Below are positions 1,100 through 62,663 of a DNA stretch of 64,000 nucleotides, one piece after another (positions within the stretch are counted from its first letter, which is position 1; each line of letters opens with the position of its first letter). The notes beneath the pieces are model-generated. The model did no database searches and was not told where the DNA came from. It was given only the letters and a program-made list of their open reading frames with translations. The DNA is from Eledone cirrhosa. Lineage: Eukaryota. The translations under genes and the position numbers were made by a program. The stretch covers positions 264,926,001 through 264,990,000 of the forward strand of contig OZ024741.1 of assembly GCA_964016885.1 (NCBI GenBank), in the 5' to 3' direction.

Positions 1100-1313
1100 G
1101 AATGCCATGGTTGACGGAGGCTCGGCTCTGTAAGGTATAGTAATTTTTAACCGTTAAAACAATTGTAAATTGTTTAAAACTTGAACCAAATTGTTGATAA
1201 AGACACCCTCCTCCTCGTGAGAGGGGTCTTTCTGTCCGTTATTTGGCCCTTCGGGGTTAAATAACCAGTTATTGGGGTTTTGTACCCAATATTCATTTTA
1301 AACAAAAAACAAC

Positions 1314-3392: not shown

Positions 3393-3427
3393 GTGGTCTT
3401 TCCCATCTTTTCCACTCTATTTTAAAC

Positions 3428-6400: not shown

Positions 6401-6847
6401 TACAGGCATGGAGGTGCCGTCAGCCGGGCATGTCCGAGATGCGCGCAGGGCGACGAAACCGTCCTGCACGCACTCGTCCAGTGTCCGAAAATTGCTGACT
6501 TGTGGGTTTATGTCGAACACCTGCTGTCGCGTTTAGGACGGATCCAGCTATCATCTGAGTCTATCGTGAGGATTGCCCCGCCCTCCTCCTTTAGCCGGGA
6601 AGGGCAGGCAGTTTTTATCTGTCTGGTGGCCATGGCGAAAGAGATAGTATGGTGGACACGTTTGAAAGGGCTGAAGACGAGCACTTACCTCTTCGGTGAT
6701 GCTCTGATTGACTTTTTCAAATTTCATTTGAAAAGGAAAATCAGAGTAGAGAAGGAAGTGCTCTCTTCCCAGCATTTTGTTGAAAGATGGGTGAGAGAAG
6801 CAAGAATGGCCCGAGTGAATGGGCCGACTCTGAGTATATATCTGTAA
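3428..6847 (+). CDS. Tx1 ORF2: APE endonuclease + reverse transcriptase + C-terminal zinc finger
   Basis: 1139 aa uninterrupted. SINARG, SET, VYAP, GDWN, YLDR and TDH endonuclease motifs; KSPGLDG, FRPITLLN, KAFDRV, RQGCPLS and YADD RT motifs; terminal CCHC. Confidence 0.96.
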   Translation: MTSLRIGSINARGLGSSWKQGHLLNDLRSLNIDVVAISETRISEARAFAPIFGGYDVYASPSRPGSGGGVAVLFRRGLDLAIRAIFLDPEGKLVVLDVTSGDGQAFRLVAVYAPTGAGRPDFFRRLETFLGTSRSLVLVGDWNGILDARWDCVGLADRGGGCKSLTNLLRRFELSDRYRLDFPNVPMWTWTNRIGSSRSYLDRVFCREIDRSSIGCPQFKIVSYTDHKFVICVLDLDRLHRRGPGYWKLNASLPARKAYRDRISELVKRALTGAIVNNKWWFALKRAIRIESIRFSKALAIEKNRAEGELVRKLDEALSKGIATDVLAAKLALDQFFNAKHEGCVVRARVRALRHEGTKAVQWARVAEARRGNKATIRSLVDHDGRMLLDPGQMCEAFQRHFAQLFGGSGGPGRGMDFSVYLDGLPRLSATEAKCCEKPITAAEVREAMTGCTRGKSPGLDGLPYELYVQMPDLFGGLLADVYCNWQQNGRIPSSVSRGAVALLRKDPNKGDNIDNFRPITLLNTEFKILAKVLAKRLALVVGGLVGEAQTCAIPDRSIHDNLHLMRYIVERVAREPGTGGSLINLDQSKAFDRVDHRYLAAVLRAAGFGPVFRGWIAAMHSDICSVVRVNGHLSEPFNIMRSVRQGCPLSSLLYVLTLEPLLHKLETLRGVPRELGCGRSVSAYADDVTVVVSNAKHIEAIGTTLREYEAVTGAMINQEKSVGLQLGTWRGRSMPSNSVVGRWTDGPVKLLGVWFGPDLQTDKNWDEVTSRVASLTQKWAERKLSLKGRAEVANAYIASVICYRLTVVPCPKPRLTALERLLFRFLWKGRAPMVRRSICCQHPLRGGLGMPWLMMRRHALRLRHLHLFLDGDQVWSPFARRVFPQLVSLTELQSWVKRRPRGSAWRLECLQALTALDQSGNVIGGNSTSAFYRGLVEGKSDDVLGETLGVDENQLANLFGRTFGPGPMDNFQKSLAWQCYRGALPVRDKLYRHGGAVSRACPRCAQGDETVLHALVQCPKIADLWVYVEHLLSRLGRIQLSSESIVRIAPPSSFSREGQAVFICLVAMAKEIVWWTRLKGLKTSTYLFGDALIDFFKFHLKRKIRVEKEVLSSQHFVERWVREARMARVNGPTLSIYL

Positions 6848-9760: not shown

Positions 9761-9761
9761 C

Positions 9762-9805
<44 letters not shown>

Positions 9806-9839
9806 GTTGTTGTTGTTGTTACTATTATTATTACTTTAT

Positions 9840-12800
9840 TTTTTTCCCAATTCAATGATGTTCCAAAGCAATATAAAAGAGATAATTGGCAATAAAGGTT
9901 CTGGAACAAAAAAGATAATTGACAATAAGGGAAGGGGCCCCAGGTTATCACAGCCTGGGCTCGCTCGTCATCGTACCACTGTAATAGAGCCAAACCAGGC
10001 ATTTAGTCTTGGCTGCTGGAACGTACGGACGCTGCTTGACAGGGATTCCTTGGAGCGTCCTGAACGAAGGTCCGCTCTTGTTGCAAAGGAGCTTCGACGT
10101 TACGATCTTGACATCGTGGCTTTATCTGAGACGAGGTTAGCTGGAGATGGTCATCTTACAGAATTTTGTGGAGAATATACATTCTTCTGGAAAGGAAGAG
10201 ATGAAGGAACCAGAAGAGAGGCTGGGGTAGCATTTGCTTTTAAGACTGTTCTTGTGAATAAATTAGAAGAATTCCCAGTAGGGATTAGTGAGCGTCTTAT
10301 GTCCATGAGAGTTCCGCTGGACAAAGGAAGATATGCGACCCTGGTGAGTGTGTATGCTCCAACTATGAATTCTGTCGATGAAGAAAAAGTGTCCTTTTAC
10401 CACGCCTTGAAAGGTGTTTTAAGAAATATCCCTCAGGCAGACAAAGTCATCGTGCTTGGTGACTTTAATGCTAGAGTGGGTAGGGATTTTAACACATGGA
10501 ATGTAATCGGAAGGCATGGGGTGGGAAAGTGTAACAACAATGGTATGCTCCTGCTGCAGATGTGTGAGGAGCTGGATCTGTGTGTTACCAACACCATGTT
10601 CCAACAAAAGAACAAATTCAAGATCACATGGATGCATCCTGCATCTAAGGAATGGCATCTTTTCGACTACGTCCTAGTCAGGATGCGTGACAGATAGCAT
10701 GTGCAGTGTGTTCGTGCTCTTCGTGGAGCTGAGTGCTGGACGGACCACCGCCTGGTACGTGCAAAAGTGAAACTAATCACTAAACGTAAAATCCGGGCTC
10801 CTGGTGTTGCCCTGCTCAAAAGATTGAATGCTGCTCGTGTTAAGGATAAAAATGTGAAGAGGACATTGGAAAAAGAGATGCAGGCTGCAGATCTTGGTGA
10901 GGATTGGCCGACCCTTAAAAAGTCGGTTTATGATGTAGGCAGGCGTGTTCTGGGATTGGTGCAGAGAAAACATCAGGACTGGTTTAATGAGAATGATGTA
11001 CATATAGAAGACTTGTTGGCTGATAAGAGGCGTGCTCTGTCACGCTACTTGACGGCAAAACCACAGGAGAAGAATACGTTGCATAAGGAACTCAAGGATG
11101 TGAAATCACGTGTTAGGCGGAGTCTTTCTCAGATGAAGGATCAGTAGTGGGGTGAGAAGGCTGATGAGATACAAACTGCGTCAGATTCCAATAACACAAA
11201 GCTGTTGTACAGTCTCTTGTGTGAAGTTTATGGACCGTCTTCTTCTCTGGTGGTACCGCTTCGCAGCAAGGATGGCAAAGAACTTCTTCGTGACTCACAA
11301 GGAATTCTACGAAAGTGGCGAGAGCACTTTGATGATCTTTTGAATCAGCCGTCTGTCGTCAATGAAGATTTCCTCAATCTCATTCCAGGAAGTCCTGTGA
11401 AAGGAGCTCTCGCAGAACCTCCGACGCTTGTGGAGGTTGCAGTGGCTATCTCGAAGCTGAACAGTGGAAGGTCTCCAGGTATGGATGGCATACATGCTGA
11501 GCTCCTACAATATGGTGGTGAGAGACTCCTGCAACATCTTCACTCTTTGTTTGGCAGGATATGGGCTAATGAATCCGTACCTGATGACTGGAGAGATGCA
11601 GTAATGGTGGTCTTGTACAAGGGAAAGGGTAACAGGAATGATTGTGGGAACTACAGAGGTATATCATTGCTTTCTGTCGTAGGGAAAGTTTTATGTAGGG
11701 TGCTTCTGGACCGTCTGCTGACACACATTGCAGATTGTGTTCTTCCTGAAAGTCAATCTGGATTTCGTGCTGGACGCAGCACTACTGATATGATCTTCTC
11801 AGCTAGACAGCTCCAGGAGAAGTGCATGGAACAAGGTTTGGATCTGTATCAGGTTTTTGTCGATCTGACAAAAGCTTTCGATACTGTTAACAGAAATGCA
11901 TTATGGAAGGTTCTCCAGAAACTTGGTTGCCCTGATAAGTTCCTTGCTTTAGTTAGGTCTTTCCATGACGACATGAAGGCTTGGGTTAATGTCGGAGGTA
12001 ACATGTCGGAGCCTATCTCAGTAAAGAATGGAGTGAAACAGGGGGATATTCCAGCACCGATGTTGTTTGCCATATACTTTGCAATGGTTTTCTGTATTGC
12101 ATTCAGGAATTGCGAGCATGGTGTTTACATCCGATATCGAACCTCAGGCAGCATATTTAACATCAGGCGCTTTGCTGCAAAGACAAAAGTATTTACATCA
12201 ATCATAAGAGACCTCTTGTATGCAGATGATTGCGATCTTGTAACGCACACAGAGAGTGATATGCTGCACATTTTTAATGCATTTTCTGATGCTTGCACTG
12301 CCCTAGGATTGACTGTCAGTCTCAAGAAAACCGTCATGTACCAACCTGCCCCTGGTAAGCAGTACAGTAAACCAAATATCTATGTGTATGGTAAACGACT
12401 TGGAGTGGTTGATCAGTTTGTCTACCTGGGAAGCACTGTCAATCGATACGGCAACCTTGACAGTGAAATCTCACTTAGGATTAGGAAAGCAAGTGATGCT
12501 TTCGGAAAGCTAGAAAGGCGACTCTGGGGTCGGCGAGACATATGCAAGAAGACAAAGGTAAAGGTGTACAAGGCATGTGTGCTCTCTTCTCTTCTTTATG
12601 CCTGCGAGACCTGGGTCACATATCGACACCACCTTAAGCAATTGGAGCGTTTCCATCAGATGTGTCTCAGACGGATCCATGGCGTTCACTGGAGGGACCA
12701 CATCAGTGATGTCGAGATTTTGGAAAGCTCTATGTGTGACAGTATAGAAGCTCTTGTGCTTAAGCAACGACTCCGTTGGAGTGATCACCTTGCCAGGATG

Positions 12801-13490
12801 AAGGATTCTAGAATACCAAAACAACTCTTTTATGGAGAGTTAGTTAAAGGAAAACGACTGCCACATAAACCGAAAAAGAGGTATAAGGATTCCTTGAAAG
12901 CCTCTTTGAAAGACGCTAACATCTCTGCTGATACATGGGAAAATATTTCTGTTGATCGTAATAAATGGAGAAAGACTGTATATGAGGGAAAAGTTGCCTT
13001 TGAGGCATCTCGAATCGCATACGAGAAAGTAAAGCGGGATGTGAGGAAGGGCATTGCTGTTGCACTTCCAGACGGCGAGGGTCCTCCTATGGTGCTGACA
13101 TGCAGCGTCTGTGCGAGACTCTGCCTAAGCAAAGCTGGACTCGAAAGTCATCTTCGCAGTCATAAAGTAAGACCAGTGGTTGACTACCAGGCTGCTGTTG
13201 GAAATGCTACTCATCATGCTTGCCAGGCATGTGGTAGAGAATGTAAATCAGCAGGAGGGCTCGAACGACATGCAAAAGTACATGAACTCCAACCACAGCC
13301 GGCTATTCCCAGTGAATGTTTTGGTTGCCGACTCTGTGCAAGACATTTTAGATAATTGGCTGGGCTAAAATTGCTATCGTGTGTGTATAGATATGTTTAT
13401 GTGTGTGCGTGTGTGTATATATATATATGTATATTATTATTGTTGTTGTTGTCGTTATTATTATTGTTGTTATTATTATTATTATTATTG

Positions 13491-18962: not shown

Positions 18963-21900
18963 TTCTTCTGGTTTTATAATTTCACAAAGTTTTACCAATA
19001 GAGAGAGAGTCGGTTTCTAACATAGAGACAAAACTCTCTCATTGGAATTTACACAACATCAACTAGGTAGATATGTATGTATGCATGCATGTGTAGATAT
19101 GGATGTTATTGTATGTGTGGATGTGTATGTTTTGATTTGTATGTGTGAATGTGTATATGCTTTGTATCTGTACATGTGTATATGCAGTTATTAGATGCAA
19201 AATTTTTGGAATGTTTTACATATTTTTACTGTTCCATTAATGGATTGTACTTGTAGTTTCCTAACTAGTTCTGTTGTTTCTGTTCCTGTGAAGCCTAGCT
19301 TCTCAAGATTTGTATTGAGGCAGTTACTAACATATCCCAGTGCCCCAATAATCACAGGAATAAATCTGAAGGTGTAATCAGGGTGGAGTATCTGCAGATT
19401 TCTCATCAGTTCTGCATAAATATTCTCCTTTTCACTAATCTTTGATATTATATTGGCATCTGCTGGGCAGCTAATTTCCACTACTGTGCATGTTTTCTTC
19501 TCCCTGTTCCATATCATAATATCTGGTCTGTTATGCCTGCATTTTATTGGGGTTTTTACTGGAACATTCCACCAGTACTCTTTCATATTATGTACATGGA
19601 TGTCTTCCACATTGTTGTAGCTTTTAATGTGTTTATTATCGGGGCTATCTTTTTTACGAACTACATTGTACAGTGTTTTGGCCACTACATCATGCCTCAT
19701 AGGGAGATAGTACAGCGATGACATCTTTGGACAGCTGCTGATGACATGGATGATATCTTCGATGTTAGTTCTGCAGAGTCTGCACTTGTTATCACATCTA
19801 GGTGTTTTGCCTGCATCCATATCTCTTTTGTGAATCAGGTATTTCGGGCTAATATCCTGTTCTTGGATTGCAAAAGCGTATCCTTCAAAGTGGGAGCCAA
19901 TATAGCGGTTGTTGGTCCAAGATAGACTACTTTCCTTATCTATATTACTCTCACTCTGGAGCTTCCTGGCAACATATCCATGCATGACTTTTTGCTGATA
20001 AGCATGCAGTCATCCATGGATTCACTGCGATACTGCTGAGCGACTTCCCTGGGTGTGAGTTTTTGATTATCACACAGGGAATATCTCTCAAGGAGTTCCT
20101 TCCCAACTCTCATGATCTTATCTGTTTCATGCAGATAAACTTGCTCGAGAGACGGGCTCCTACGCTTCGAGGTTCGTAGATGTTGTCGGAGAGATATGAT
20201 GCGACATTCAAATGTTGTCTGGACTGATGTTAGGCCTCTGCCTCCCTGCTTACGTTTCAAGTAAAGGTTGTCTATGTCACTGTTGCTGTGGAAGTTTCCG
20301 GTGTTGTTCTGTATTTTTCGAGTTCCAACATCAACTGCTCGGATTTCGTCTATCGCCCAATTGAGTATTCCAAACGTTGGTGTTAGGACAGACACAGCAA
20401 ACATATTGTGAGCCATTGTTTTGTTTTGCGCAGAGAGTTCCGATGACCAGATCTTTCTTAATCGGGTGTATTATTCCCTGGTTACGCGTTCTTTATTACA
20501 TATACCATTATAGGATATGTTCTCATTTATCCCAAGGTATCTGTAGCAGTCCTCATCAGATATCGGTGAAACAGTTAGACCATTGATGACAATGTTGCTA
20601 GATTGGGTTGTTGTTTTTCCCCGCTTTACAGTCATGTATGAGCATTTATCTTGGCCAAACTCCATTCCTATATCCTTTGAGAATGTTGTAACCAGGTCAA
20701 GATTTTTCTTCATTCCATCCATGTTCTTGGCATAGAGTTTCAGATCCTCCACAAAGAAGTTATGGGTTAGGTTCGTATTTCTGTCCTCCTGTGAGCCAAT
20801 GATGTATCCCTCACATTTCTTGAGCAGAAAGGACAAGGGGTTTAATGACAAGATGAACAATATCACAGAGCGACTGTCCCCCTGAAATATACCCCTGCAA
20901 TATTTTATTTTATCAGTGAAAATAGAGTCCTCCCTCTCTGTCTTTAACCTTAGGATAGTAGCCCAAGAAGACAGCCTCTCTATGGCTCTGACAATAATGT
21001 CTGGGACTTTAGCAAGTTGGAGGGCCTCTATCATCCAAGAGTGGAGAACAGAATCGAAAGCTTTCCTGTAGTCCAGCCAGACTGTAACCATATGCCTCCT
21101 AAGTTTTCGCACCTCCGACATCGCAGTTTTGTTGATTAGGAGTTGTTCAGCACATCCTCAAACCCTTTTCTTTCCAGCTGCTTGTTCATCTGTGATGATG
21201 TTATTATTTTCACAGTGATCTTGGAGGAATAGGTTCAGGCAGGCTGTATACATCTTATACATCAGGTTCTGGCATGCAATGGGTCGGTAGTTTTTTGCCA
21301 AGTGGGTGTCTTTGTTCTTGGGGACCAGTAACGTTTGTGCTAATGTCAACCATTCTGGTATAAGTGTATCTCCCTTAAGAACTTGTTGGTAGAGGTCAGT
21401 AAGATACCTCCGATAGAATATTAGTTTTTTGTACCAGTAGCCGACAATCGTGTCTCTTCCTGGTGTTTTCTTATCTTGGAGTTTTCCTATCACAGTCTCA
21501 AGGGTACCCTCACTTCTTTCGTATGTTTTTGTTGTAGGAGCAATAGTTTTGTTGTAGGAGCAATAGTTCTTTCGGATTTCTCTTAGCCACACTGCATCTT
21601 GGTTGAAATGCTTCTTTTCACCCCATATTTTGCTCCAAAAAGAATATATGTCTTTCTGGGATGGGGCCTCAGTGACACTTATTATTTTGCCCTTCATATC
21701 TCTATAGACTGATGTTTGGTTTCGTCTGAATCTTTTATTAAGCATTTTTCTCTCATCTACCTTCTTCAGGTATCGGCGTTTTTCGCTAACAGCTCTCGAT
21801 TCTTGTTTGAGGGTGATCAACTTATATTGGAGAGTTCTGGTTCTACTGTTACCAAACATCGTCTCTATTTTATTTTTCACTCTTTGTTGGTGAGGAGTGA

Positions 21901-22783
21901 GTTTTTTTTGTGTTTGTTTGCATGTAAGGAGCATTGTCACATGTCCTATGTTTTTGCGTAGGTCAGCACTCTTTTTTTCTATTTTAGTTATATATGATGG
22001 TATCTTTGGTAGTGTTTTGTTCTTGTTAATATCTCTGCTATCACCAAGATAATGCTTCACTGTCATTGCTAAGGCATATAAACAGGCGTTGATTTGCAAA
22101 ATGTTGGGGTTTTATCCGTCGTAAATATTCATCCCCTATTTTGTCAATAACACGTAGTATTTCATTTGGTTTTTTATTCACCATCGTCATTTTAACACGT
22201 TCAGCCAGAGAAATGTTTATACATGAGTTAATTTCTCTCTGGAAGATTTCGTTGAGGGAAATTTTCAATTGTTTATACTTTTGATTATCATTATCGATAG
22301 TATTTTCCACAATAGTAGAGGTAGACTCAGAAGGTATACGTGGTGTCACATTTATTCGATTATTATTATTATTTCTTCGATTATTATTATTATCGATAGT
22401 GTTTTCCCCAGCATTCGAGGTAGACTTAGATGGTACAGGTGGTGTCAAGTTTCTTACAAGCATAGTTGTTTCAAGGCGCTGTTCGACCTGGCTGCTAGGA
22501 AGTCTAGTAACATGGCGATCTGTAGCACGTGTTGTTGATTCCATGTTTGTTGTGGGGGACTTACAATTAATAATATTTATCTTATTTTTACGTTCAATAA
22601 ACGTCGCTTGTTGGCGTAATTGTTTTGCTGTGAAATAATTTAGCTCTGGGTGCATTTCGTCCCAGTGTAGCTTCATTCTGTTCATATAGCCAATGGAGGG
22701 ATTGTTTTTTGCCATTTTATAACAATTAAATAAATCATTATTAAGTTCGCAACTCAAAGAGAAATGCTATTTATAATTTCTTT
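18963..22783 (-). mobile_element. Near full-length, decayed R4-clade non-LTR retrotransposon embedded in (CATA)n
   Basis: Frameshifted ORFs 22041-22757 (R4/Dong-like N-terminus CY..GYMNRMKLHWDEMHP..QLRQQ), 21158-22099, 20471-21121, 19940-20416 (RT) and 19191-19985 (CRLC..H..C, RHD, RPD..VEISCP..KE). (CATA)n at both junctions. Confidence 0.9.
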
Positions 22784-39215: not shown

Positions 39216-39297
39216 ACGTGTGTGTGTGTGTATAAATATATATATATTTATATATATATACGTACGTATGTGTGTGCTGGGCATAAATGGGTGATGT

Positions 39298-39328
<31 letters not shown>

Positions 39329-39345
39329 TGTATGTGTGTGTGCCT
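38170..39345. repeat. (TA)n/(TG)n/(AG)n microsatellite field
   Basis: Direct reading. Confidence 0.95.
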
Positions 39346-39762
39346 ATGTTATATGATCACAGAGAGTTTTCAAATCAAGAGCAAGTAGCTATTGCAGAAG
39401 TTTAGTTTAGTACAGTAAAAGTTTCTAGAACAGAACAGAAAGAAAAAACAAAAACAAGAGCATAAGGTGTCAACTATAGAATATATATCTAACACTGAAC
39501 ATTAGGGATGTGAGCTGCATGTGTAGACACCAAGTTGGAAACAACACTACACTTACACATTATATTTAGAATTAAATCCGTGGTTAGGGATTAACAAACA
39601 CCTGGCTGTGTTCTACAGTACACCCACACATCATAAATACTTTGGAATCCAGAATGATGGAGCAAAAGTTAAGAAAATTGATTTTATATGAAGTTCATAT
39701 ATAATTTAGCCATAAATAATTTAAATAGTTAACGATCCACGGAGATTTTAAAGTCCATCGAT

Positions 39763-41064
39763 TTATCGAGAAGACTTTTCAGGAGAGAATCCCTCTATCT
39801 TCTCGGAAGTATTACTTTCTCCCTCTGCTGGCGAAATTGGTGATTTCACAGGTGACTTGACAGGAATCATGCATGCCGGCTTCCCATTCTTCATTTCTAA
39901 CGAGTTTATCGCTGGTGAAGCTTGGGGAGATTTATCGGTAACATTCATCACTGGAGACTTTTCAGGTGAGCTTTGTGGTGAAGGACTTGACGATGGCCCA
40001 GAAGAACTCATTGCTACGAAACTAGGAGATTTTTCTGGGCTAATGGAAATCATACTAGGAGACTTTTCGGTACTTCTCGTGGGTATCATTGTTGGAGACT
40101 TTTCTGGACTCTTTGTAGGGATCATACTCTGAGCTACATCTGGGCTTCTAGTTGGTATCATAGAGGGAGCCTTTTCTGGACTCTTGTTGGGAGATAGATT
40201 TGGTGTTATATCTGGACTCTTTGTTGGTACTTTAGTAGGAGACATATCAGGACTCCTAGTCGGGATCATAGAGGGAGGTTTTTCAGGGCTCTTATTAGGG
40301 ATTGATACATTTGGGCCTTTTGTTGGCGACTTATTAGGAGACACATCTGGACTTCTGGTAGGTATCATAGATGGGACCTTTTCAGGACTCAGGGTTGGTA
40401 TTTCAGAGCTCTTAGATTTCACGTCGTTTTGAGATTTTTCTTGACTTTCATTTGTTATAATTGGTGATATGTCTGAATTCCGAAGATTACTAGAAGCTGA
40501 AGAAAGGTTTAAACCTTCAACAGGACCAGCAGGGATCTCTGGATTTAAGATTGGAATTGGACTTGGCAACTTTTCTGGAATGGTTTCAGGTACAGGACTC
40601 GGTGGTTGCGGAGAACTTTTGCCAGAGATTTGGTTAGGAGATTTTACTCGATCACCTGTTGGGAGTGAGTTTGGTGACTTTAATGGACTTTTTATTGGTG
40701 CAGTTTCTGGCGATTTTACACCTGTTTTAAGAGCAGTTGAACCGAGTGGCTTGTCCGGGCTTTTGATTGGCGATTTTTCGGTTGTCTTTGCCTTCATCTT
40801 GTCTTGTTTTGTTTTGTCCCCCAGTTTACCTTTATCAGGAGTATCTTTTGGCGTTCTGGTTCCTGTTTTAGCTGCACTTTTCACAGGAGTTCCTTGGTTT
40901 TCTGATCTCGCAGAACCCTTGTACCCTGTCACATAGCCACTCTTATCGGCTTTATCAGCACGTCCACTTGCTCCTCTGCCTTTTCCAGCACTGTCAAATC
41001 TTTCCCTATGGGAACCCGTGTACCGAGAAGTATCGGTCAAGTTCGAAACAATCTTTGTAGATTT
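39763..41064 (-). CDS. TPPP: TPPP/p25-alpha family protein, last coding exon: p25 C-terminal signature plus about 385-aa Ser/Pro tail
   Basis: Acceptor tctctttgcag| in phase 0. [35 protein letters not shown] is the p25-alpha signature with GxGxxGR. Stop TAA at 39763. Confidence 0.9.
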
Positions 41065-41324
41065 CTGCAAAGAGAAGACATTAAAATATCAATTAAAACA
41101 TTTAGGGGTCAAAGGTTTGTGAAAGGTAGGAAACATATGGGTGCAGATCTGTTAGAAATGGCTTAGTTGTACAAATGTAAAATATGTTAAAAAGAACTTA
41201 CTCAGAATTTTATCATAAAAGTATAATCTATTTCATAATATTTTACATAAATTTTATAGTTTTTACAACATTGGAGAAAAATACCTTATAGTTTCGTTTA
41301 CCCATCTCTACAACTGTAAAGCAG

Positions 41325-41662
41325 GGAATTGGCAGAATCATTATAACATCAGAGAGAATGTTTTGCGGTATTCGTTCAGAATCTCTGCTCTCTGCGTTTA
41401 AATCCCGCTAAGGTCAACTTTCCCTTTCATCCTTTCAAGATCGATAAAAAAAGTACCAGTCAAATACTAGGGTCGATTCTTCCTCTATATTTCTTTTTCA
41501 ATTTCATTCTCTCGCTTTCTATCCTTCTCTTGATGAAATCTGTTGTTGTATTCAGACCTGGAGAGGAGATGGGCTCCACCAGGTTTTAAAATGCCCTAAA
41601 ACACTGTATGCCCCTACGACTCCCCCAAGAGTTACGGGACCATACATACATACATACATACA
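41325..41662 (+). mobile_element. Nin-domain SINE subfamily with a distinct long 3' tail ending GGACCATAC(ATAC)n
   Basis: Tail GAAATCTG..CAGACCTGGAGAGGAGATGGG..GAGTTAC(G/A)GGACCAT. Other copies at 45455-45790, 47395-47830, 54110-54455(-) and 55530-56165. Confidence 0.72.
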
Positions 41663-43449
41663 ACTGTAAAAACCTTGTACTGATATACAAAATATTTTTT
41701 ATCCAGGTGGTACAAAAAAAACTCAACACCTTGACCATTTTTCGAAGGTGTAAAAATAAATCAAAATAAAATTGGTTAAATTTTTCATCAAAGTGAAGGC
41801 CATGCTGGATGACACACTACACACCCTGGGCTGAAATTGAAACCATAAACCAGAGTATTGATTGATAGTTCACACATTGTATCTTGACTCCCACCCTATC
41901 TTAAAACCTTTGGGTTTTTATACAAAAATCTTCAATATTGCAGTAGAATATAAGTCTGAAAGGAGAGGCAACAGAGAGGAGTTCCAGCTAGATCTTGTCA
42001 ACAAAATCTCCAAGAGTCATGACCAAGAGCACCCCCCCCCCCTAGAGTGTAAGAAGCTAGGGATAGAAACACTTGCTTGAGCTCTCCTGGGAGAGTTTCT
42101 TAACACTTTAAATGGTTATTATAGACTTCAATACACCAGTAGAATATCTAAATGGCTATTGTATGTTGATTTACTTCATCTCAATTTCTTCATTAAAGTT
42201 GCGGAGTGTTGTGTCACGAAATGCCATGTCTTCGGGTGTCTTCAAACGGATCTGTCCACAACTGGGAACGAAAATAGGACCCTGGAGGGTGGCGGAGAGT
42301 ATGAAGCTATGATGCAAAGTATATTATCGAAAGCTAAATTTTATTCCCATATTTGATGAGTTCACTCCCATTTCTAAGAATATTTCTCGCTATAAATAGT
42401 AAAGCTAACAGTATAAAGGAATCGTGAAGGTGCGTGGCTTTGTGGTGAAGGTATTTGGCTCACAATTGTAAGGTCGTGAGTTTGATTCCCGGTAGTGTGT
42501 TGTGTCCTTAAACAAGACAATTTTTTTCACGTTGCTCCAGTCCACTCAGCTGGCAAAAATGAGTTGTGTCACGCTGAATCTCCCTGAGAACTACGTTAAG
42601 GTTACATGTGTCTGTGGAATGCTCAGCCACTTGTACATTAATTTCACGAGCACGCTGTTCCGTTTATCGTATCAAGTGGAACACTCGTCGTCGTAACCGA
42701 GGGAGTGCCCAGTAATATAAAAGAAACTCAAACTTGCACGTTATTAGAGGATGATAGTCTGAACTAACATGTGGCTACACTGAGATGCACTAGTTAACCT
42801 CTGTGTTCTCTCAGGCATATAAACTACCAGATCTATCGTTGTCATCAACTATATCTTGAGCAAGACTTCTTCCCTATCAACAATCCAGCAGTAAATAAGG
42901 AATTGAAACATTAGATAAAGTAGTATTACATGTTCTTAGAAAAATGGGATGGTCACAGTTGGTATGTCTTTAGCTATAGGTCTACTCAATCAAGGTAGAC
43001 TTGCAACTAAACATCACCAATCGCATAATAATATAAATGGCCATGGATTTTGGAGAATTTCTAAAACTTGAATGGGATCTCGGAATGATGTACTAGAAAT
43101 ATATGAGGGTTGGCCGAAAAGTTCATATTATGACCAAGATACTCTCATAGAATGATCAAATGAGGTTTATTTTTCAATATAGTCCCTGGAATGAAACAAT
43201 GCAGTTATTGATAGGAAGAGTTGAAATTAATGCATGCAATATTTCACAGCTCTAGCATCATTCCTTTATAGCTTATGAACTTTTCAGTCAACTTTTGTAC
43301 TGAAACTTCGTTTATCTTCAATAATCCAAGCAATTTGTAGACAAAAACTCCCTCTAGGTGGGTTTAAAATCTAAAACCAAGGATCAAACTGTATCACCAA
43401 TATAAAACTCAACCTTGTTACTAATTATAATAATGAATTGTTCAAATGT

Positions 43450-43655
43450 TCCGCTGGGGATACAACCTGATCAATTGGAGAGGGTTGCTGCTGACAGGAC
43501 CCTCTGGAAGGAGTACTTGAGTACTCTTCCCTCCACGACCCTCACAAGACGAAGAAGAAGAAGAAGAAGAAGAAGAAGAAGAAGAAGAAGAAGAAGAAGA
43601 AGAAGAAGAAGAAGAAGAAGAAGAAGAAGAAGAAGAAGAAGAAGAAGAAGAAGAA
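43450..43655 (+). mobile_element. Short RTE 3' end with (GAA)n tail
   Basis: LGIQPDQLERVAADRTLWKEYL, homologous to 44845-44945. Confidence 0.7.
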
Positions 43656-43731
43656 ATGACTGTATTAAGTGAGAAAAACTACAACAACAAAAACAACAAA
43701 AAACAACGAAATCCGTTGCTAGGTTACATAC

Positions 43732-43900
43732 AATTTCTTTTACTCCTGGAGTTCCTTTCTTAATTAATTCACGAAACTCATTAGTATATTTCTCAATACT
43801 TTCATCTTCTCGGCTCAGTTTGGTATTCTTTGTCTTCATTTTGGCATATTCAAAGGCGCAGTCAGCAATGAATGAAGGGAACTTGGAAATATGCATGTAC
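43732..43900 (-). CDS. TPPP: TPPP/p25-alpha family protein, middle coding exon (169 nt)
   Basis: Acceptor ctctttctctag|, donor |gtatgt. Phases match both neighbouring exons. Reads YMHISKFPSFIADCAFEYAK..ELIKKGTPGVKEI. Confidence 0.82.
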
Positions 43901-44049
43901 CTAGAGAAAGAGAGATGAGAGAAAAGAAACAACGTGGGGAACAACATTATATACATTGCTGGCCTTGTGCCAAAAAGTAGAAACAATTATATACATGTCT
44001 ATGTCTCTCTCTACTAGTCAATCAGAGCACGGATGGATATCTAATTACA

Positions 44050-45240
44050 TTTTAGTGGTTAGAATGTCTCAGGAAAGAACACTGGAGTCACTCCAGGTAG
44101 AGCTGCTACTTCTCCGAATTGAGAGATCACAGCTCAGACACTATACGCATGTGGTTAGACTGTCTCAGGAAAGAATCACTGGAGTCACTCCAGGTAGAGC
44201 TGCTTCTTCTCCGAATTGAGAGATCACAGCTCCGATATTACAGACATGTGGTTAGACTGTCTCAGGAAAGAATCAGTGGAGTCACTCCAGGTAGAGCTGC
44301 TACTTCTCCGAATTGAGAGACCACAGCTCCGATATTACAGACATGTGGTTAGAATGTCTCAGGAAAGAATCAGTGGAGTCACTCCAGGAATAGCTGCTTC
44401 TTCTCCGAATTGAGAGACCACAGCTCCGATATTACAGACATGTGGTTAGAATGTCTCAGGAAAGAATCACTGGAGTCACTCCAGGTAGAGCTGCTACTTC
44501 TCCGAATTGAGAGACCACAGCTCCGATATTACAGACATGTGGTTAGAATGTCTCAGGAAAGAATCACTGGAGTCACTCCAGGTAGAGCTGCTACTTCTCC
44601 GAATTGAGAGACCACAGCTCCGATATTACAGACATGTGGTTAGAATGTCTCAGGAAAGAATCACTGGAGTCACTCCAGGTAGAGCTGCTACTTCTCCGAA
44701 TTGAGAGACCACAGCTCCGATATTACAGACATGTGGTTAGAATGTCTCAGGAAAGAATCGCTGAACAGATTTTACGGAAAAAAACAAGGGGGGGGGGGGC
44801 TCGATCAAGATGATTGGATAATATCCATGCACTTGGCTGATCTCGCTTGGGGATCCAACTGGATCAGTTGGATACGGGTGCATCTGACAGGAGCTGCTGG
44901 AAGGAATGTTTGAGGACACTGCCCCCTCGGCCCTCTCAGGAATAAGTGGGAGAAGAAGAAGAAGAAGAAGAAGAAGAAGAAGAAGAAGAAGAAGAAGAAG
45001 AAGAAGAAGAAGAAGAAGAAGAAAAAGAAGAAGAAAGAGAAAAAGAAAAAGAAAAAGAAAAAGAAGAAGAAGAGAAAGAAGAAGAAAAAGAAGAAAAAGA
45101 AGAAAAAGAAGAAAAAGAAGAAAAAAGAAAAAGAAGAAGAAAAATAAAAATAAAAAAAGAAGAAGAAAAAGAAGAAGAAGAAGAAGAAGAAGAAGAAGAA
45201 GAAGAAGAAGAAGAAGAAGAAGAAGAAGAAGAAGAAGACG
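44050..45240 (+). mobile_element. RTE 3' fragment with a 97-bp internal segment amplified about 7x, and long (GAA)n tail
   Basis: Unit translates LESLQVELLLLRIERPQLRYYRHVVRMSQERI; period 97 from ORF starts 44119, 44216, 44410, 44507, 44604, 44701. Confidence 0.85.
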
Positions 45241-46417
45241 ACGACGACGAAGACGTTACACGGGAAAGGTACATAATATACCACATAACATGTGACTTGT
45301 ATCTAGAAGTAATATGTGATATAAAATGTCTTGTACGTTAATTGAACCTGTGTCATAGACTCGGCACCTGAAGTGACTATTAGCATGAATTTCCTAATTA
45401 ATTCACGTCTTACTTACCGAAATTGTTATCTAATTGTTTATTATTGTTTCATTAGCGGCGAATTGTCAGAGTCATTAGAATGTCGGATAGAATGTCGGAT
45501 AGAATGTCGGATAGAATGTTTTGTGGGATTCATTCCGACTTTCTGCTCTCTGAGTGCAAATCCCGCCGAGCTCAAATTTGAGATCGATAAAAAAAAGTAC
45601 CATTTTAGTACTGGGGTCGATTCTTCCTCTATATCTCTTTTTCACTTCCTCTCCCTCACTTTCCATTCTTCTCTGGAAGAAATCTGCTGTATTTAGACCT
45701 GGAGAGGAGATAGTTTTTACCTGGTTTAAAATTCCATAGAAACACCCATACGACTCCATCAGGAGTTACAGGACTATATCATACCATACCATTGTTGTTT
45801 CACTTTACGGTATTGGTTTTGTTCTAGGCCCAGAGCCCATCATCCTCTCCTTTTCCCCATCACTTTCTTCTCTGGTCCAAGAGTCCTCGCTTTTTCTCTC
45901 CTTTCCTCTCGTTTATGGCATTTATAATTCTTTCCCCTCCTTTCCCATACAGCCAGATCTGACCCTCTTTACCACTTTCTCTTTTTCTCATTACCTAATT
46001 TTGTTTTTATCTTTCTTTTTTCATATTTATGTAAATATCAATGGTTTTAAAGCCAACTTTGTGAGTGAAACACATGTATTGAGAATAAACAGTTTTTTTT
46101 TTTATATTAAAGTTTACATCAAGAATTTAAAAAACAAACTTTAGAAATAAACTCAAGAAATGTGATATTAATACAGTGGATTGGCAATAATCGGTAGAGC
46201 GTCGGATATTATGTTTTGCGGCATATAGTTACGGTCCTTTACATTCTGAGTTCAAATCCCACCGAGGTCAGCTTTGCCTTTCATCCTTACAGGGTCAATA
46301 AAAAAAAATGCAGCAGTAACGTACTGGGCGATTTGATCGACCCCCGCCCCCACCGAAAAAAAAAATTGTTAGCCTTGTGCCTAAATCAGAAACAATATTG
46401 ATATAATTTTTACTCAC

Positions 46418-46659
46418 TGCTTTCCCTTTTCTTTGTATTTGGGGAAGACACAGGCATCAGCAATGGTCTGCACTTCCTTCGGTAAAGTCTTACGAACTAG
46501 TTTCCCGCAGGCTTTGCAGTTCATTTGCTTTAGCTCCTCAGGTGTTAGTTTTTTGCCGACTGACGAAACACGAACAAATTCTTTAAAAACTTTGTTTATT
46601 TCTGTATTTTCGTCTGGTTTTTTCTCCTCGGGAGAAACTGGAGATTCCTTTGTCGCCAT
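46418..46659 (-). CDS. TPPP: TPPP/p25-alpha family protein, first coding exon (242 nt)
   Basis: MATKESP..VFKEF..QMNCKACGKL..DACVFPKYKEKGK resembles the p25 N-terminal half. Donor |gtgagt; acceptor catttcag| 13 nt upstream of the ATG. 242+169+1302 nt = 570 aa plus stop. Confidence 0.85.
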
Positions 46660-47489
46660 CGTTTGACTCTATCTGAAATGACAAATTAAATAAATATTAT
46701 TAGATAAATATATATTAATTAGGTCGAAATATATAATGACAAAATTATATTTTTAATGTTGTATTTTGAGAGGGTCTTTATGACAATGGAAAATACAAAA
46801 ACCAAACATATTTTATTATTATTATGAGTTCAAGGGTGGTGGATTGGCAGTGTCGGTAGAGAGTCGGACACCATGCTTTCCAGCATAGTTACGACCCTTT
46901 ACGATCTGAGCTCAAATCCCGTCGAGGTTAACTTTGCCTTTCATCCTTACGGGGTCGATAAAATAAAGTACCAGTAACGCACTGGCGTCGATTTAATCGA
47001 CTTTCCCCTCTCCCAAAATTACTTATGTGCCTTTATAAGAAACCATTATTAGGGCGGTGGATTGGTAGTATCTGTAGAGAGTCGGACACCATTTGCAGCA
47101 TAGAGTTACGATTCTTTACGGTCTGAGTTCAAATCCCGCCGAGGTTAACTTTGCCTCTCATCTCTACGGGGTCGATAAAATAAAGTACCAGTACGTACTG
47201 GAGTCGATTTAAGCGACTTCCCCCTCCCCCCAAATTACTGGCCTTGTGCCTATACTAGAAATTATTATTATTAATCCCGCCGAGGTTAACTTTGCCTTTC
47301 ATCCTTACGGGATCGATAAAATAAAGTACCAGTAATGCACTGGGGTAATTGCTGGCCTTGTGCCTAAAGTAGAAACAATTATTATGATTGTTGTGGAATG
47401 GCAGTATCGAAAAGCTGATGTCAATTTTGCCTTTCGTCCTTTCGAGGTCGATAAAAAAAGTACCAGTCTAGTACTGGGGTCGCTTCCTC

Positions 47490-47869: not shown

Positions 47870-49590
47870 CATGTGGTTTACATGGCTATAGCAATATAGC
47901 TACATTAATATAGCCACATGTATATAGCTTTAAAGCTGGCTACATTGATCTGGCTACATGTTATGTTGTCAAATATTTCTGAAGCAGACTACATCAATAT
48001 AGCTACATGTTATAGAATATTTCTGAAGCAGGCTACATTAATATAGCTACATGTTGTAGAAGCAACATGTTTAAAGCTGGCTACATTGATCTGGCTACAT
48101 GTTATATTGTCAAATATTTCTGAAGCAGAATACATCAATATAGCTACATGTTATAGAATATTTCTGAAGCAGGCTACATTAATATAGCTACATGTTGTAG
48201 AAGCAACATGTTTAAAGCTGGCTACATTGATCTGGCTACATGTTATGTTGTCAAATATTTCTGAAGCAGACTACATCAATATAGCTACATGTTATAGAAT
48301 ATTTCTGAAGCAGGCTACATTAATATAGCTACATTAATATAGCCACATGTTTAAAGCTGGCTACATTGATCTGGCTACATGTTATGTTGTCAAATATTTC
48401 TGAAGCAGAATACATCAATATAGCTACATGTTATAGAATATTTCTGAAGCAGGCTACATTAATATAGCTACATGTTGTAGAAGCAACATGTTTAAAGCTG
48501 GCTACATTAATCTGGCTACATGTTATGTTGTCAAATATTTCTGAAGCAGACTACATCAATATAGCTACATGTTATAGAATATTTCTGAAGCAGGCTACAT
48601 TAATATAGCTACATTAATATAGCCACATGTTTAAAGCTGGCTACATTGATCTAGCTACATGTTATGTTGTCAAATATTTCTGAAGCAGAATACATCAATA
48701 TAGCTACATGTTATAGAATATTTCTGAAGCAGGCTACATTAATATAGCTACATGTTGTAGAAGCAACATGTTTAAAGCTGGCTACATTGATCTGGCTACA
48801 TGTTATATTGTCAAATATTTCTGAAGCAGAATACATCAATATAGCTACATGTTATAGAATATTTCTGAAGCAGGCTACATTAATATAGCTACATGTTGTA
48901 GAAGCAACATGTTTAAAGCTGGCTACATTGATCTGGCTACATGTTATGTTGTCAAATATTTCTGAAGCACACTACATCAATATAGCTACATGTTATAGAA
49001 TATTTCTGAAGCAGGCTACATTAATATAGCTACATTAATATAGCCACATGTTTAAAGCTGGCTACATTGATCTGGCTACATGTTATGTTGTCAAATATTT
49101 CTGAAGCAGACTACATCAATATAGCTACATGTTATAGAATATTTCTGAAGCAGGCTACATTCATATAACTACATGTTATCTTGTTAAACATGTCTGAAAC
49201 AAGCTACATTAATATAACTACATGTTATATTATTAAACATGCCTGGAACTGGCTACATTCATATAACTACATGTTATCTTGTTAAACATGTGTGAAGCAA
49301 GCTTCATTAATAGAGCTACATGTTATCTTGTTAAACATGTCTGAAGCAAGCTACATTAATAGAGCTACATGTTATCTTGTTAAAATGTGTGAAGCTAGCT
49401 ACATTAATATAGCTACATGTTATTTTGTTAAACATGTGTGAAAAAGGCTACATTAATATAGCTACATATTATCTTGTTAAACATGTGTGAAGCAAGCTAC
49501 ATTAATACAGCTACATGTTATCTTGTTAAACATGTCTGAAACTGGCTACATTAATAAAGCTACATGTTATCTTGTTAAACATGTGTGACA
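47870..49590. repeat. GCTACAT-based satellite with 141/139-bp higher-order units grading into about 49-bp monomers
   Basis: AAAGCTGGCTAC at 47932, 48073, 48214, 48353, 48494, 48633, 48774, 48915 and 49054. Confidence 0.92.
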
Positions 49591-49817
49591 TTTTATGATG
49601 GGAAATGTTGGTTAATGTGAGACTCACTAATGCACAGAGATAGAAATGACAGAGGCAATGTCAGGCGGGGTGGAGCAGACGAAGCGAAGTGGGGGTGGCG
49701 TAGCGACGGGTGTGTGGGGTGGGTGTGGGGGTGGGGGTGGTGTGGGGGAGCTAAATACACCCTGAAATTGCCTCATGATCATCACAAGCCACCCATATTC
49801 TACCCTGATACCCTTAC

Positions 49818-60164: not shown

Positions 60165-60433
60165 GCCCTTGTGGCCAATAAATGAAATCATTATATATAT
60201 ATATATATATATATATGGGATAACAAGTTATCGTTATAGGTAATCCAGTTAGAGGTTGTGAGTACTCTGTGTCGTGGATAGTTTTAGCGTATGGCTTTGT
60301 TTGACTCAACAAGATGCTGCCATAGTTATGCAGCGAGTTCGCGGTAATTTCTACGCAGGTTATACTTGGAGTAATAATAGTGAAAGAAAGAAGAGTAACA
60401 TGGTTGGCTGTACAATAAGGGGCTTTATTTAAA

Positions 60434-60544
60434 GTACTAACAATTGTTTCGTTGATCAGGTGAGTTTAGAGTTCGCTAATCGCTTGAGGTTGCGTCATTC
60501 GATCTCCAATACATTATTTGCCTCTGGTCAACACATCAGAGTAC
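60434..60544 (-). ncRNA. Hammerhead motif with long stem II and A9-to-T core change
   Basis: Minus strand: GTACT-CTGATGT-GTTGACCAG...CTGATCAAC-GAAA-CAATT-GTT-AGTAC. Confidence 0.6.
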
Positions 60545-60598
60545 GTAGGTACATATATATATGTGTGTGTGTGTGTATGTTTCTGTGTGTGTGTGTGT

Positions 60599-62420
60599 GT
60601 TATCCCCGCAGCCCCAGTCATAAAATATATATGTTATCCCCGCAGCCCCTGTCATACAATATATATGTTATCACCGCAGCCCCAGCCATACAATATATAT
60701 GTTATCACCGCAGCCCCAGCCATACAATATATATGTTATCCCCGCAGCCCCTGTCATACAATATATATGTTATCACCGCAGCCCCAGCCATACAATATAT
60801 ATGTTATCACCGCAGCCCCTGTCATACAATATATATATGTTATCCCCGCAGCCCCTGTCATACAATATATATATGTTATCACCGCAGCCCCTGTCATACA
60901 ATATATATATGTTATCCCCGCAGCCCTTGTCATACAATATATATATATATGTTATCCCCGCAGCCCCTGTCATACAATATATATGTTATCCCCGCAGTCC
61001 CTGTCATGCAATATGTATGTTATCCCCGCAGCCCCTGTCATACAATATATATGTTATCACCGCAGCCCTTGTCATACAATATATATATGTTGTCACCGCA
61101 GCCCCTGTCATACAATATATATATGTTATCCCCGCAGCCCCTGTCATACAATATATATGTTATCACCGCAGCCCCTGTCATACAATATATATGTTATCCC
61201 CGCAGCCCCTGTCATACAATATATATGTGTTATCACCGCAGCCCCTGTCATACAATATATATGTTATCACCGCAGCCCCTGTCATACAATATATATGTGT
61301 TATCACCGCAGCCCCTGTCATACAATATATATATGTTATCCACGCAGCCCCTGTCATACAATATATATGCTATCCCCGCAGCCCCTGCCATACAATATAT
61401 ATGTTATCACCGCAGCCCCTGCCATACAATATATATGTTATCACCGCAGCCCCTGCCATACAATATATATATGTTATCACCGCAGCCCCTGTCATACAAT
61501 ATATATATGTTATCACCGCAGCCCCTGTCATACAATATATATATGTTATCACCGCAGCCCCTGTCATACAATATATATATGTTATCCCCGCAGCCCCTGT
61601 CATACAATATATATATATATGTTATCCCCGCAGCCCCTGTCATACAATATATATGTTATCACCGCAACCCCTGTCATACAATATATATGCTATCACCGCA
61701 GCCCCTGTCATACAATATATGTTATCTCCGCAGCCCCTGTCACACAATATACATGTTATCCCCGCATCCCCTGTCATACAATATATATGTTATCCCCGCA
61801 TCCCCTGTCATACAATATATGTTATCCCCGCAGCTCTTGTCATACAATATATATGTTATCCCCGCACCCCTGTCATACAATATATATGTTATCCCCGCAG
61901 CCCCTGTCATACAATATATATATATGTTATCCCCGCAGCCCCTGTCATACAATATATATATGTTATCCACGCAGCCCCTGTCATACAATATATATGCTAT
62001 CCCCGCAGCCCCTGTCATACAATATATATGCTATCCCCGCAGCACCTGTCATACAATATATATATGTTATCCCCGCAGCCCCTGTCATACAATATATATA
62101 TGTTATCCACGCAGCCCCTGTCATACAATATATATGCTATCCCCGCAGCCCCTGTCATACAATATACATGTTATCCCCGCATCCCCTGTCATACAATATA
62201 TATGCTATCCCCGCAGCCCCTGTCATACAATATATATATGTTATCCCCGCAACCCCTGTCATACAATATATATATGTTATCCCCGCAGCCCCTGTCATAC
62301 AATATACATGTTATCCCCGCATCCCCTGTCATACAATATATATGCTATCCCCGCAGCCCCTGTCATACAATATATATGTTATCCCCGCAGCCCCTGTCAT
62401 ACAATATATATATGTTATCC
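60599..62420. repeat. Minisatellite, about 30-36-bp unit GTTATC(C/A)CCGCAGCCCCTGTCATACA(AT)n
   Basis: More than 50 tandem copies; a two-unit relative lies at 59323-59392. Confidence 0.95.
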
Positions 62421-62663
62421 ATATCACAGGATCATATATTAGAGAGCAGGCACATAGCGATTGAATCTACATTATCAATATTCATACATCGATCCTGATG
62501 GGACGAAGTACAAATCAGCCTGGGCTACATTTGAATGTATATAGATTAATTCATCGCCATCTTCTCCAGTATCATCACTACCTCTATATCGCTAGTGTTA
62601 CACTTGCTACTTTTATGGTAGAAACCATTTTAAAATCTTCTTAATCTATCTGGGTAAATGTCT

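What the first reader, a model, noticed from the sequence alone, without database searches (positions are those of the whole stretch)
39763..46659. TPPP/p25-alpha protein with a long tail of tandem SxIP (EB-binding-like) and KSP motifs
Seen: three exons with matching phases splice to 570 aa. After the p25-alpha signature comes about 385 aa of disordered S/P/K sequence. It contains four SMIP, one TMIP, SEIP and SPIP motifs (mostly 40080-40410), each set in PSMIPT(R/K)SP repeats among many KSP/SPEK sites. Known: canonical TPPPs are about 170-220 aa microtubule bundlers; SxIP in a basic S/P-rich context is the EB1 plus-end-tracking motif, and nearby proline-directed phosphorylation switches it off. 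Inference: this may be a phospho-regulated plus-end-tracking TPPP, an architecture I do not recognise from described TPPP subfamilies.
Basis: partly seen in the sequence, partly recalled or inferred. Interest (0 to 1): 0.75.

Follow-up and report, generated by a model that had tools for sequence, protein, structure and literature searches.

The report
Octopus microtubule bundler with phospho-switch tail
An octopus gene for the small microtubule-bundling protein TPPP is spliced to carry an extra 383-residue proline-repeat tail, kept in a second octopus, that likely works as a kinase-controlled arm and may also bind the microtubule-tip protein EB1 weakly, which is untested.

Summary
The gene is real. 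Three exons give 570 aa, and one assembled contig of a probable RNA run joins them and covers the whole tail without mismatch. Octopus sinensis has a 560-aa orthologue, misnamed 'cell surface glycoprotein 1-like'. It is one of three TPPP genes in this genome, all of a divergent mollusc type; the other two are 178 aa. The tail is a predicted-disordered array with proline every fourth residue, 40 S/T-P sites and 18 KSP. All 7 SxIP-like cores are kept in O. sinensis, and five copies of the octamer [ST]MIPT[RK]S[PT] hold their residues while silent sites have drifted. But 0 of 7 meet the published strict EB-binding context (5 of 7 a looser one), local charge is neutral, and SxIP words are common in unrelated xxxP arrays. 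Best reading: a microtubule-binding TPPP with a phosphorylation-switched projection arm (0.5). EB-dependent tip tracking is a live rival (0.35). New variant of a known kind.

The parts
46660..46672 (-). 5' UTR part of the first coding exon, behind an AG acceptor; holds an in-frame TAG just before the ATG
   Evidence: X1 contig of 593 nt fits 46501-46672 and has 421 nt upstream that lie outside the stretch laid; sequence
46418..46659 (-). Coding exon 1 (aa 1-81), N-terminal part of a divergent mollusc-type p25-alpha domain; phase-2 donor
   Evidence: 78 of 81 aa identical to O. sinensis P0001; X1 contigs
43732..43900 (-). Coding exon 2 (aa 82-137), middle of the p25-alpha domain; phase-0 donor
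   Evidence: loose end of the X1 contig matches 43732-43761; 52 of 56 aa identical to P0001
39763..41064 (-). Coding exon 3 (aa 138-570 and stop): end of the p25-alpha domain and the whole tail in one exon
   Evidence: open frame; covered with 0 differences by the spliced X1 contig
40915..41064 (-). Conserved C-terminal part of p25-alpha (aa 138-187) with the GxGxGxxGR motif at aa 164-172 (40986-40960)
   Evidence: Pfam PF05517, 55.3 bits, cut-off 22.6; motif
39766..40914 (-). S/P/K-rich tail (aa 188-570): 40 S/T-P sites, 17 of them S/T-P-x-K/R, 18 KSP, net charge +17, predicted disordered
   Evidence: pLDDT about 39-51 over the tail in the model of the O. sinensis orthologue
40018..40413 (-). 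Repeat array (aa 355-486): proline every fourth residue, 12-residue super-period, holding 6 of the 7 SxIP-like words
   Evidence: P-P pairs at lags 4/8/12 = 24/22/21 against 6.8 expected; DNA repeats spaced 33, 36, 72, 99, 108 nt
40552..40563 (-). SPIP (aa 305), no basic residue within the 9-residue window
40396..40407 (-). SEIP (aa 357), acidic residue inside the motif
40360..40371 (-). SMIP (aa 369)
40261..40272 (-). SMIP (aa 402)
40153..40164 (-). SMIP (aa 438)
40117..40128 (-). SMIP (aa 450); SIIP in O. sinensis; its serine uses an AGY codon where the three other SMIP use TCN
40081..40092 (-). TMIP (aa 462)
39297..39762 (-). 3' UTR as far as the X1 contig reaches (laid to 39400; 103 further letters run over the end of the stretch). 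True end unknown

Best explanation
This is a spliced TPPP gene whose p25-alpha head likely binds and bundles microtubules, and whose 383-residue tail, predicted to be unfolded, likely acts as a projection arm switched by proline-directed kinases. Shown: gene structure, spliced contig, orthologue, repeat layout, selection on the repeat's residues. Inferred: unphosphorylated, the tail is basic (+17) and would add to binding on the acidic microtubule surface; phosphorylation of its 17 full CDK-type sites would bring it to about -17, and of all 40 S/T-P sites to about -63 (at -2 each), so that it would extend and repel, widening or releasing bundles, as the KSP tail of neurofilament-H does. The repeated octamer [ST]MIPT[RK]S[PT] is a selected unit. 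In this reading it serves as a kinase site with a hydrophobic patch, and any EB binding through its SxIP words is weak and secondary.
For: Head: full p25-alpha domain in the orthologue (Pfam 2-153 of 153, 81 bits), 173 of 187 aa identical between the two octopods, as well kept as the short paralogue (160 of 178); best fold match human TPPP3, PDB 2JRF (E 2.7e-4). The last exon is described as responsible for microtubule binding (PMC8180608, passages). Tail: 37 of 40 S/T-P sites and 16 of 17 full CDK-type sites kept in O. sinensis. Among the five repeat copies the T[RK]S[PT] half is held at least as tightly as the SMIP half (pN/pS 0.10 and 0.15). The periodicity lies in the protein, not the DNA (no excess over synonymous shuffles within the array). 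Non-SxIP variants SMIS and CMIP are also unchanged in O. sinensis. 0 of 7 motifs pass strict SxIP-9AA (rule from PMC6138660). NF-H KSP tail expands on phosphorylation (PMC11626179, passages). Human TPPP is a Cdk5 substrate at TPPKSP (PMC12047068, passages).
Against: No experiment on this protein. Phosphorylation, microtubule binding and spacing are all inferred. The SxIP words are the best-kept words of the array (6 of 6 keep positions 1, 3 and 4 against 13 of 24 other P-ending words), which a simple charge brush would not need. No control array reaches the tail's density of loose-rule motifs (0 of 60 at 3.5 per 100 aa; tail 3.76). A fixed, aligned repeat layout in two species (130 of 130 positions without gaps in the window row) is tighter than a spacer requires. 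Only one orthologous tail was available. The tissue is unknown.
Confidence: 0.5

Rival explanations
1. Plus-end-tracking TPPP: five weak SMIP/TMIP motifs spaced 12-36 residues apart bind EB dimers by avidity and carry the p25-alpha head to growing tips; phosphorylation of the serine three residues after each motif switches this off, as in SLAIN2.
For: 21 of 21 core residues kept against 311 of 383 in the tail; copies keep [ST]-M-I-P with silent sites near saturation (pS 0.73, pN/pS 0.15) while the four residues before vary more (0.49); position 1 alternates only between S and T, with both serine codon families; 5 of 7 pass the looser rule of one basic and no acidic residue in nine (wording in PMC9877351); 0 of 60 unrelated arrays reach that density. 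The genome has a canonical EB gene with an EBH exon and an acidic EEY end. SLAIN2 uses tandem SxIP-like sites turned off by Cdk1-dependent phosphorylation (PMC3115796, passages).
Against: 0 of 7 pass strict SxIP-9AA; the one strict motif of O. sinensis (TKIP) is TKGP here. Net charge within 5 residues is 0 or -1, whereas the bare SKIP binds at about 10 mM and affinity comes from hydrophobic and basic flanks (PMC12695022, passages). At word level 7 of 7 against 43 of 61 is not significant (p=0.10). 21 of 60 unrelated xxxP-array proteins, 32 of the 60 with a crudely called signal peptide, hold 6 or more SxIP words in 110 residues. The five copies share one origin.
Confidence: 0.35
2. The tail is a largely neutral or generic low-complexity extension (read-through plus tandem duplication), and the SxIP words are by-products of a proline-every-fourth array.
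For: Tail less conserved than head (81% against 92.5%); best database matches of the array are unrelated xxxP linkers rich in the same words; only 1 long-tailed TPPP among 102 p25-type proteins retrieved.
Against: Frame open for 383 codons in two species; low pN/pS among copies; no DNA-level microsatellite signal; no donor elsewhere in the genome (next match 51 bits against 233, and the 7 of 9 such loci inspected were simple repeats).
Confidence: 0.1
3. The Met-Ile patches repeated every 12 residues are stickers for self-association or for a partner other than EB, so the tail drives condensates or a scaffold that phosphorylation dissolves.
For: M-I is kept in SMIS and CMIP, which are not SxIP; a preprint abstract reports liquid condensates of mammalian TPPP (10.1101/2023.05.31.542915, search listing only).
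Against: No direct test; the tail has almost no aromatic residues.
Confidence: 0.05

Closest known systems
Long-type TPPPs (human TPPP/p25, TPPP3/p20; Drosophila Ringer; Pfam PF05517; PDB 2JRF, 9J4E/F)
   Same: Full p25-alpha domain, GxGxGxxGR motif, three coding exons with phase 2 then phase 0 introns, proline-directed sites.
   Different: 570 aa against about 170-220; 383-aa C-terminal xxxP array; N-terminal two thirds of the domain are of a divergent mollusc type (30-32% identity to fish TPPP3); the terminal GTY/F motif is replaced where the tail begins.
Octopus sinensis XP_029640840.1 / A0A6P7SRB8 (P0001), auto-named 'cell surface glycoprotein 1-like'
   Same: One-to-one orthologue: 560 aa, same repeat layout, all 7 cores kept.
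   Different: A database model with a misleading name; no paper found on it. It has an extra TKIP and lacks an 11-aa stretch.
Short octopod TPPP paralogues (O. bimaculoides XP_014777243.1, O. vulgaris CAI9729497.1, O. sinensis XP_029640662.1; two in this genome)
   Same: Same divergent domain type; the three-exon paralogue has introns at the same places.
   Different: 178-199 aa, no tail; 54-57% identical in the domain; a separate clade (100/98) from the long paralogue's clade (100/98).
SxIP-type plus-end trackers with tandem motifs (SLAIN2, MACF, Navigators)
   Same: Several [ST]xIP words in a disordered, serine-rich region with neighbouring Cdk-type sites.
   Different: Motifs here lack a basic residue at X1-X4 and have acidic residues close by; binding untested; head is p25-alpha.
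Neurofilament-H/M KSP tails
   Same: Many KSP sites (18; bovine NF-M has 17, NF-H about 50 per PMC11626179), slightly basic until phosphorylated.
   Different: No intermediate-filament rod (Pfam finds only p25-alpha in P0001); strict 4-residue proline period; resemblance is compositional, no homology shown.

Membership tests
Long-type TPPP | Full-length p25-alpha domain | tested here: met
   PF05517 2-153 of 153 on the orthologue P0001; on the window, exon 3 alone scores 55 bits and exons 1 and 2 alone score nothing; 173 of 187 aa identity links the two
Long-type TPPP | GxGxGxxGR Rossmann-like motif | tested here: met
   aa 164-172; motif named in PMC3498115
Long-type TPPP | Three coding exons, first intron phase 2 | tested here: met
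   against PMC8180608; the first intron splits Gln81, not a lysine, so its exact position differs
Long-type TPPP | TPPP helical core fold | tested here: met
   Model of P0001: aa 21-130 pLDDT 80-94; top Foldseek hit 2JRF, the only one at E<=0.001, with modest TM-score 0.43 by target
Long-type TPPP | Stand-alone small protein of about 170-220 aa (typical, not defining) | tested here: not met
   570 aa; longest S/P tail among 102 p25-type proteins retrieved
Long-type TPPP | Binds tubulin and bundles microtubules | not testable with these tools
   inferred from the family (PMC4542545 abstract)
SxIP-type +TIP | [ST]-x-[IL]-P core | tested here: met
   7 words
SxIP-type +TIP | Motif in a disordered region | tested here: met
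   pLDDT mostly under 50 from aa 182 on in the orthologue's model, whose alignment had no other tail; composition
SxIP-type +TIP | SxIP-9AA: a basic residue at X1-X4 and no acidic residue at X1-X6 | tested here: not met
   0 of 7 here; 1 of 8 in O. sinensis, not conserved (rule quoted in PMC6138660). Looser reading: 5 of 7
SxIP-type +TIP | Motif conserved above background | tested here: inconclusive
   21 of 21 core residues; 7 of 7 against 43 of 61 words, p=0.10; one orthologue only
SxIP-type +TIP | Binds EB and tracks growing ends | not testable with these tools
   needs pull-down and imaging
Neurofilament H/M | Intermediate-filament rod domain | tested here: not met
   Pfam finds only p25-alpha
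Neurofilament H/M | KSP-rich tail | tested here: met
   18 KSP against 1.5 expected, 0 of 10,000 shuffles

The most novel reading that the evidence does not exclude
Cephalopods evolved a TPPP that rides growing microtubule tips: five weak SxIP motifs bind EB by avidity, and CDK-type phosphorylation beside each motif both releases EB and turns the tail into a repulsive spacer. It would be the first plus-end-tracking member of a family known as lattice bundlers.
Probability: 0.33. Interest if true: 0.7.

Novelty: new variant of a known kind. Interest (0 to 1): 0.48.

Why it matters
TPPPs are described as small bundlers, generally one per invertebrate genome (PMC12047068, PMC8180608; passages). 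This octopod has three, of a divergent mollusc type, and one has gained a conserved kinase-site tail twice the size of the domain. It gives a natural test of whether a TPPP head plus a charge-switched arm can set microtubule spacing as neurofilament or MAP arms do, and of whether several SxIP motifs in poor context can add up to EB binding. It also corrects a misleading database name.

Tried and rejected
Complex prediction: two copies of the 49-aa EBH exon with aa 426-475 of the tail gave 'no answer' (scores 0.01, 0.00; no alignments; EB lacked its last exon); not used as evidence. Run search: no RNA holder listed; X1 is called a probable RNA run only because its contig skips the introns; 4 runs, 1 study, tissue not given. 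This is no evidence that they lack a tail. ESM Atlas on the tail: no usable hit. Origin from a DNA microsatellite: rejected. Origin by copying from another gene of the genome: not found (150 of 17,235 candidates scored). Intron or UTR misread as coding: rejected. The first tree (46 rows) had a wrong last exon for the short paralogue; it was rebuilt correctly with 24 rows and the long-paralogue clade was unchanged; deeper branches are unresolved. Literature: no paper holds SxIP+SMIP+EB1 or two of the accessions/TPPP name/octopus terms; TPPP+end-binding+SxIP gave 2 reviews, of which I read passages of one (PMC13406575) and saw no link; two searches listed nothing on cephalopod TPPP. Buey 2012 was not held; Jiang 2012 and Honnappa 2009 were not read, and their rules are taken from citing papers. 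KSP repeats in squid NF-220 are recalled, not found. No supplements were read; those of the Orosz TPPP surveys could list the O. sinensis protein. Earlier notes of this scan: none on this gene.
Full report
Verdict. The protein is a real TPPP variant with a long conserved tail. Whether it tracks microtubule tips is open, and the sequence evidence cuts both ways.

Gene. On the - strand, exons 46659-46418, 43900-43732 and 41064-39763 have GT/AG ends and matching phases and give 570 aa. A 1997-nt contig of run X1 lies on the end of exon 1 and on all of exon 3 and 363 nt of 3' UTR with no difference. Its loose 229 nt start with the end of exon 2 and equal 60 + 169. Contigs of X2-X4 run on into the intron, so the joined form is not DNA. 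A second X1 contig covers 46501-46672 and continues with 421 nt from upstream; an in-frame TAG precedes the ATG. The runs come from one study and carry no tissue. O. sinensis XP_029640840.1 (P0001, 560 aa) is an orthologue with the same junction residues and 81% identity over exon 3.

Family. Pfam p25-alpha covers the whole model in P0001 and the GxGxGxxGR motif is intact. A model of P0001 has a confident helical core (aa 21-130) and a low-confidence tail; its best fold match is human TPPP3. The genome search found three TPPP genes: this one, a 178-aa three-exon gene with introns at the same places, and a 178-aa intronless gene. All three belong to a divergent type also found in bivalves and a chiton. 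In the corrected tree the window gene, P0001 and two unnamed exon-1 fragments (78-79% identical) form one clade (100/98), apart from the short cephalopod genes (100/98). So the paralogue is older than the split between this species and O. sinensis; the age of the tail beyond that split is unknown. Of 102 p25-type proteins retrieved only P0001 has such a tail. Passages of TPPP surveys (PMC3498115; PMC12731214; PMC8180608; PMC12047068) describe long, short, truncated, fungal-type, double, triple and multidomain forms and apicortin; PMC12731214 and PMC3498115 do not contain 'mollus' in the main text.

Tail. Residues 188-570 are 19% Ser, 18% Pro, 12% Lys, net +17, with 40 S/T-P sites, 17 S/T-P-x-K/R sites and 18 KSP. 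Prolines recur every four residues, most strictly in aa 355-486, with a 12-residue super-period. The period is not seen in the DNA beyond what the protein imposes, apart from a weak 36-nt signal over the whole tail (z 2.8). O. sinensis keeps 37 of 40 S/T-P and 16 of 17 full sites. No source for the repeat was found elsewhere in the genome.

For EB binding. All 21 core residues of the 7 words are kept, against 81% for the tail. In the array 6 of 6 SxIP words keep positions 1, 3 and 4, against 13 of 24 other words ending in proline. Among the five SMIP/TMIP copies silent sites are near saturation while the motif is held (pN/pS 0.15) and the four residues before it vary more (0.49). Five motifs have a basic and no acidic residue in the nine-residue window, a density none of 60 unrelated arrays reaches. 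A serine-proline follows four of the five motifs within four residues, the layout of SLAIN2 (PMC3115796, passages). The genome has a canonical EB gene.

Against EB binding. The strict rule needs a basic residue at X1-X4 (PMC6138660, passage); 0 of 7 have it with no acid, and the one strict motif of O. sinensis is absent here. Net charge within five residues is 0 or -1. Measured affinity depends on flanks: about 10 mM for bare SKIP, 3.5 uM for the 11-mer of MACF, nanomolar with added hydrophobic and basic residues (PMC12695022, passages). Over the whole tail the word-level conservation is not significant (p=0.10), the T[RK]S[PT] half is held as tightly as SMIP (0.10), and SMIS and CMIP are kept too. 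The closest matches of the array in 1.84 billion representatives are unrelated xxxP linkers; 21 of 60 hold six or more SxIP words in 110 residues and 32 of 60 hold at least one strict motif. These controls were picked for likeness to the tail, and their signal peptides were called by a crude rule.

Mechanism. The reading that needs fewest exceptions is a microtubule-binding head with an arm whose charge is set by proline-directed kinases, from +17 to about -17 or -63, by analogy with the NF-H tail (PMC11626179, passages). Binding, phosphorylation and spacing are inferred (0.5). Avidity-based tip tracking is the main rival (0.35) and can coexist with it. A neutral tail (0.1) fits the selection signal poorly.

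Novelty. New variant of a known kind: a TPPP by every structural test made, not filed as an SxIP +TIP because the context test failed. The searches listed under Tried and rejected found no description. Other papers seen only as passages: PMC9877351, PMC3649978, PMC3513837, PMC13406575; PMC4542545 as abstract and outline. Interest 0.48.

Noticed in passing
L001:1486-2022 (G000:C2:392870529-392871062): Intronless, intact 178-aa TPPP, likely a retrocopy of the short paralogue's lineage; groups with an unnamed Logan protein and, in the first tree, an Argonauta protein.
   Followed up: partly
L012:1483-2391, - strand (G000:C1, about 111.4727-111.4736 Mb): Single-frame 303-aa EB-like gene with a divergent CH-like region and EB1 C-terminal motif (27.5 bits, cut-off 27) that ends without the acidic EEY tail. 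An EB lacking the acidic tail might care less about basic flanks of SxIP; untested.
   Followed up: partly
L011, L014, L016:1536-1604 (G000:C2, 88.02-88.04 Mb): Canonical EB gene: two CH-region exons, an EBH exon and a candidate last exon ending in EEY, found by pattern only.
   Followed up: partly
L007 (G000:C2, about 397.011 Mb): The acceptor and first few codons of the short paralogue's last exon are duplicated 289 nt upstream, followed by a TG-rich repeat: a possible decoy splice site.
   Followed up: no
window 46418 and L005: The first, phase-2 intron splits Gln (window) or Pro (short paralogue), 5-7 codons behind the conserved lysines K74/K76 of alignment A1, whereas PMC8180608 places it in a conserved lysine in human: a possible intron shift in the mollusc-type genes.
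   Followed up: partly
P0015, P0029, P0043, P0096, P0189 and unnamed relatives: A divergent mollusc-type TPPP group (bivalves, chiton, cephalopods; a sea-slug protein more distant) with a longer middle region; no canonical-type TPPP surfaced in this genome's Pfam search (3 matches, 6 candidates).
   Followed up: partly
window 1302-6847 (+): Two long open frames (696 and 1195 aa) that look like an intact LINE retrotransposon (ORF1 with zinc knuckle; endonuclease-reverse transcriptase), read by eye.
   Followed up: no
window 7225-13355 and 19191-22766: Several broken reverse-transcriptase elements on both strands, read by eye.
   Followed up: no
window 44060-44760, 48000-49600, 60430-62500: Tandem arrays: a 97-nt unit in intron 1, an AT-rich array upstream of the gene, and an array giving long stop-free frames near the window's end; also long GAA runs at 43551-43636 and 44950-45240.
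   Followed up: no
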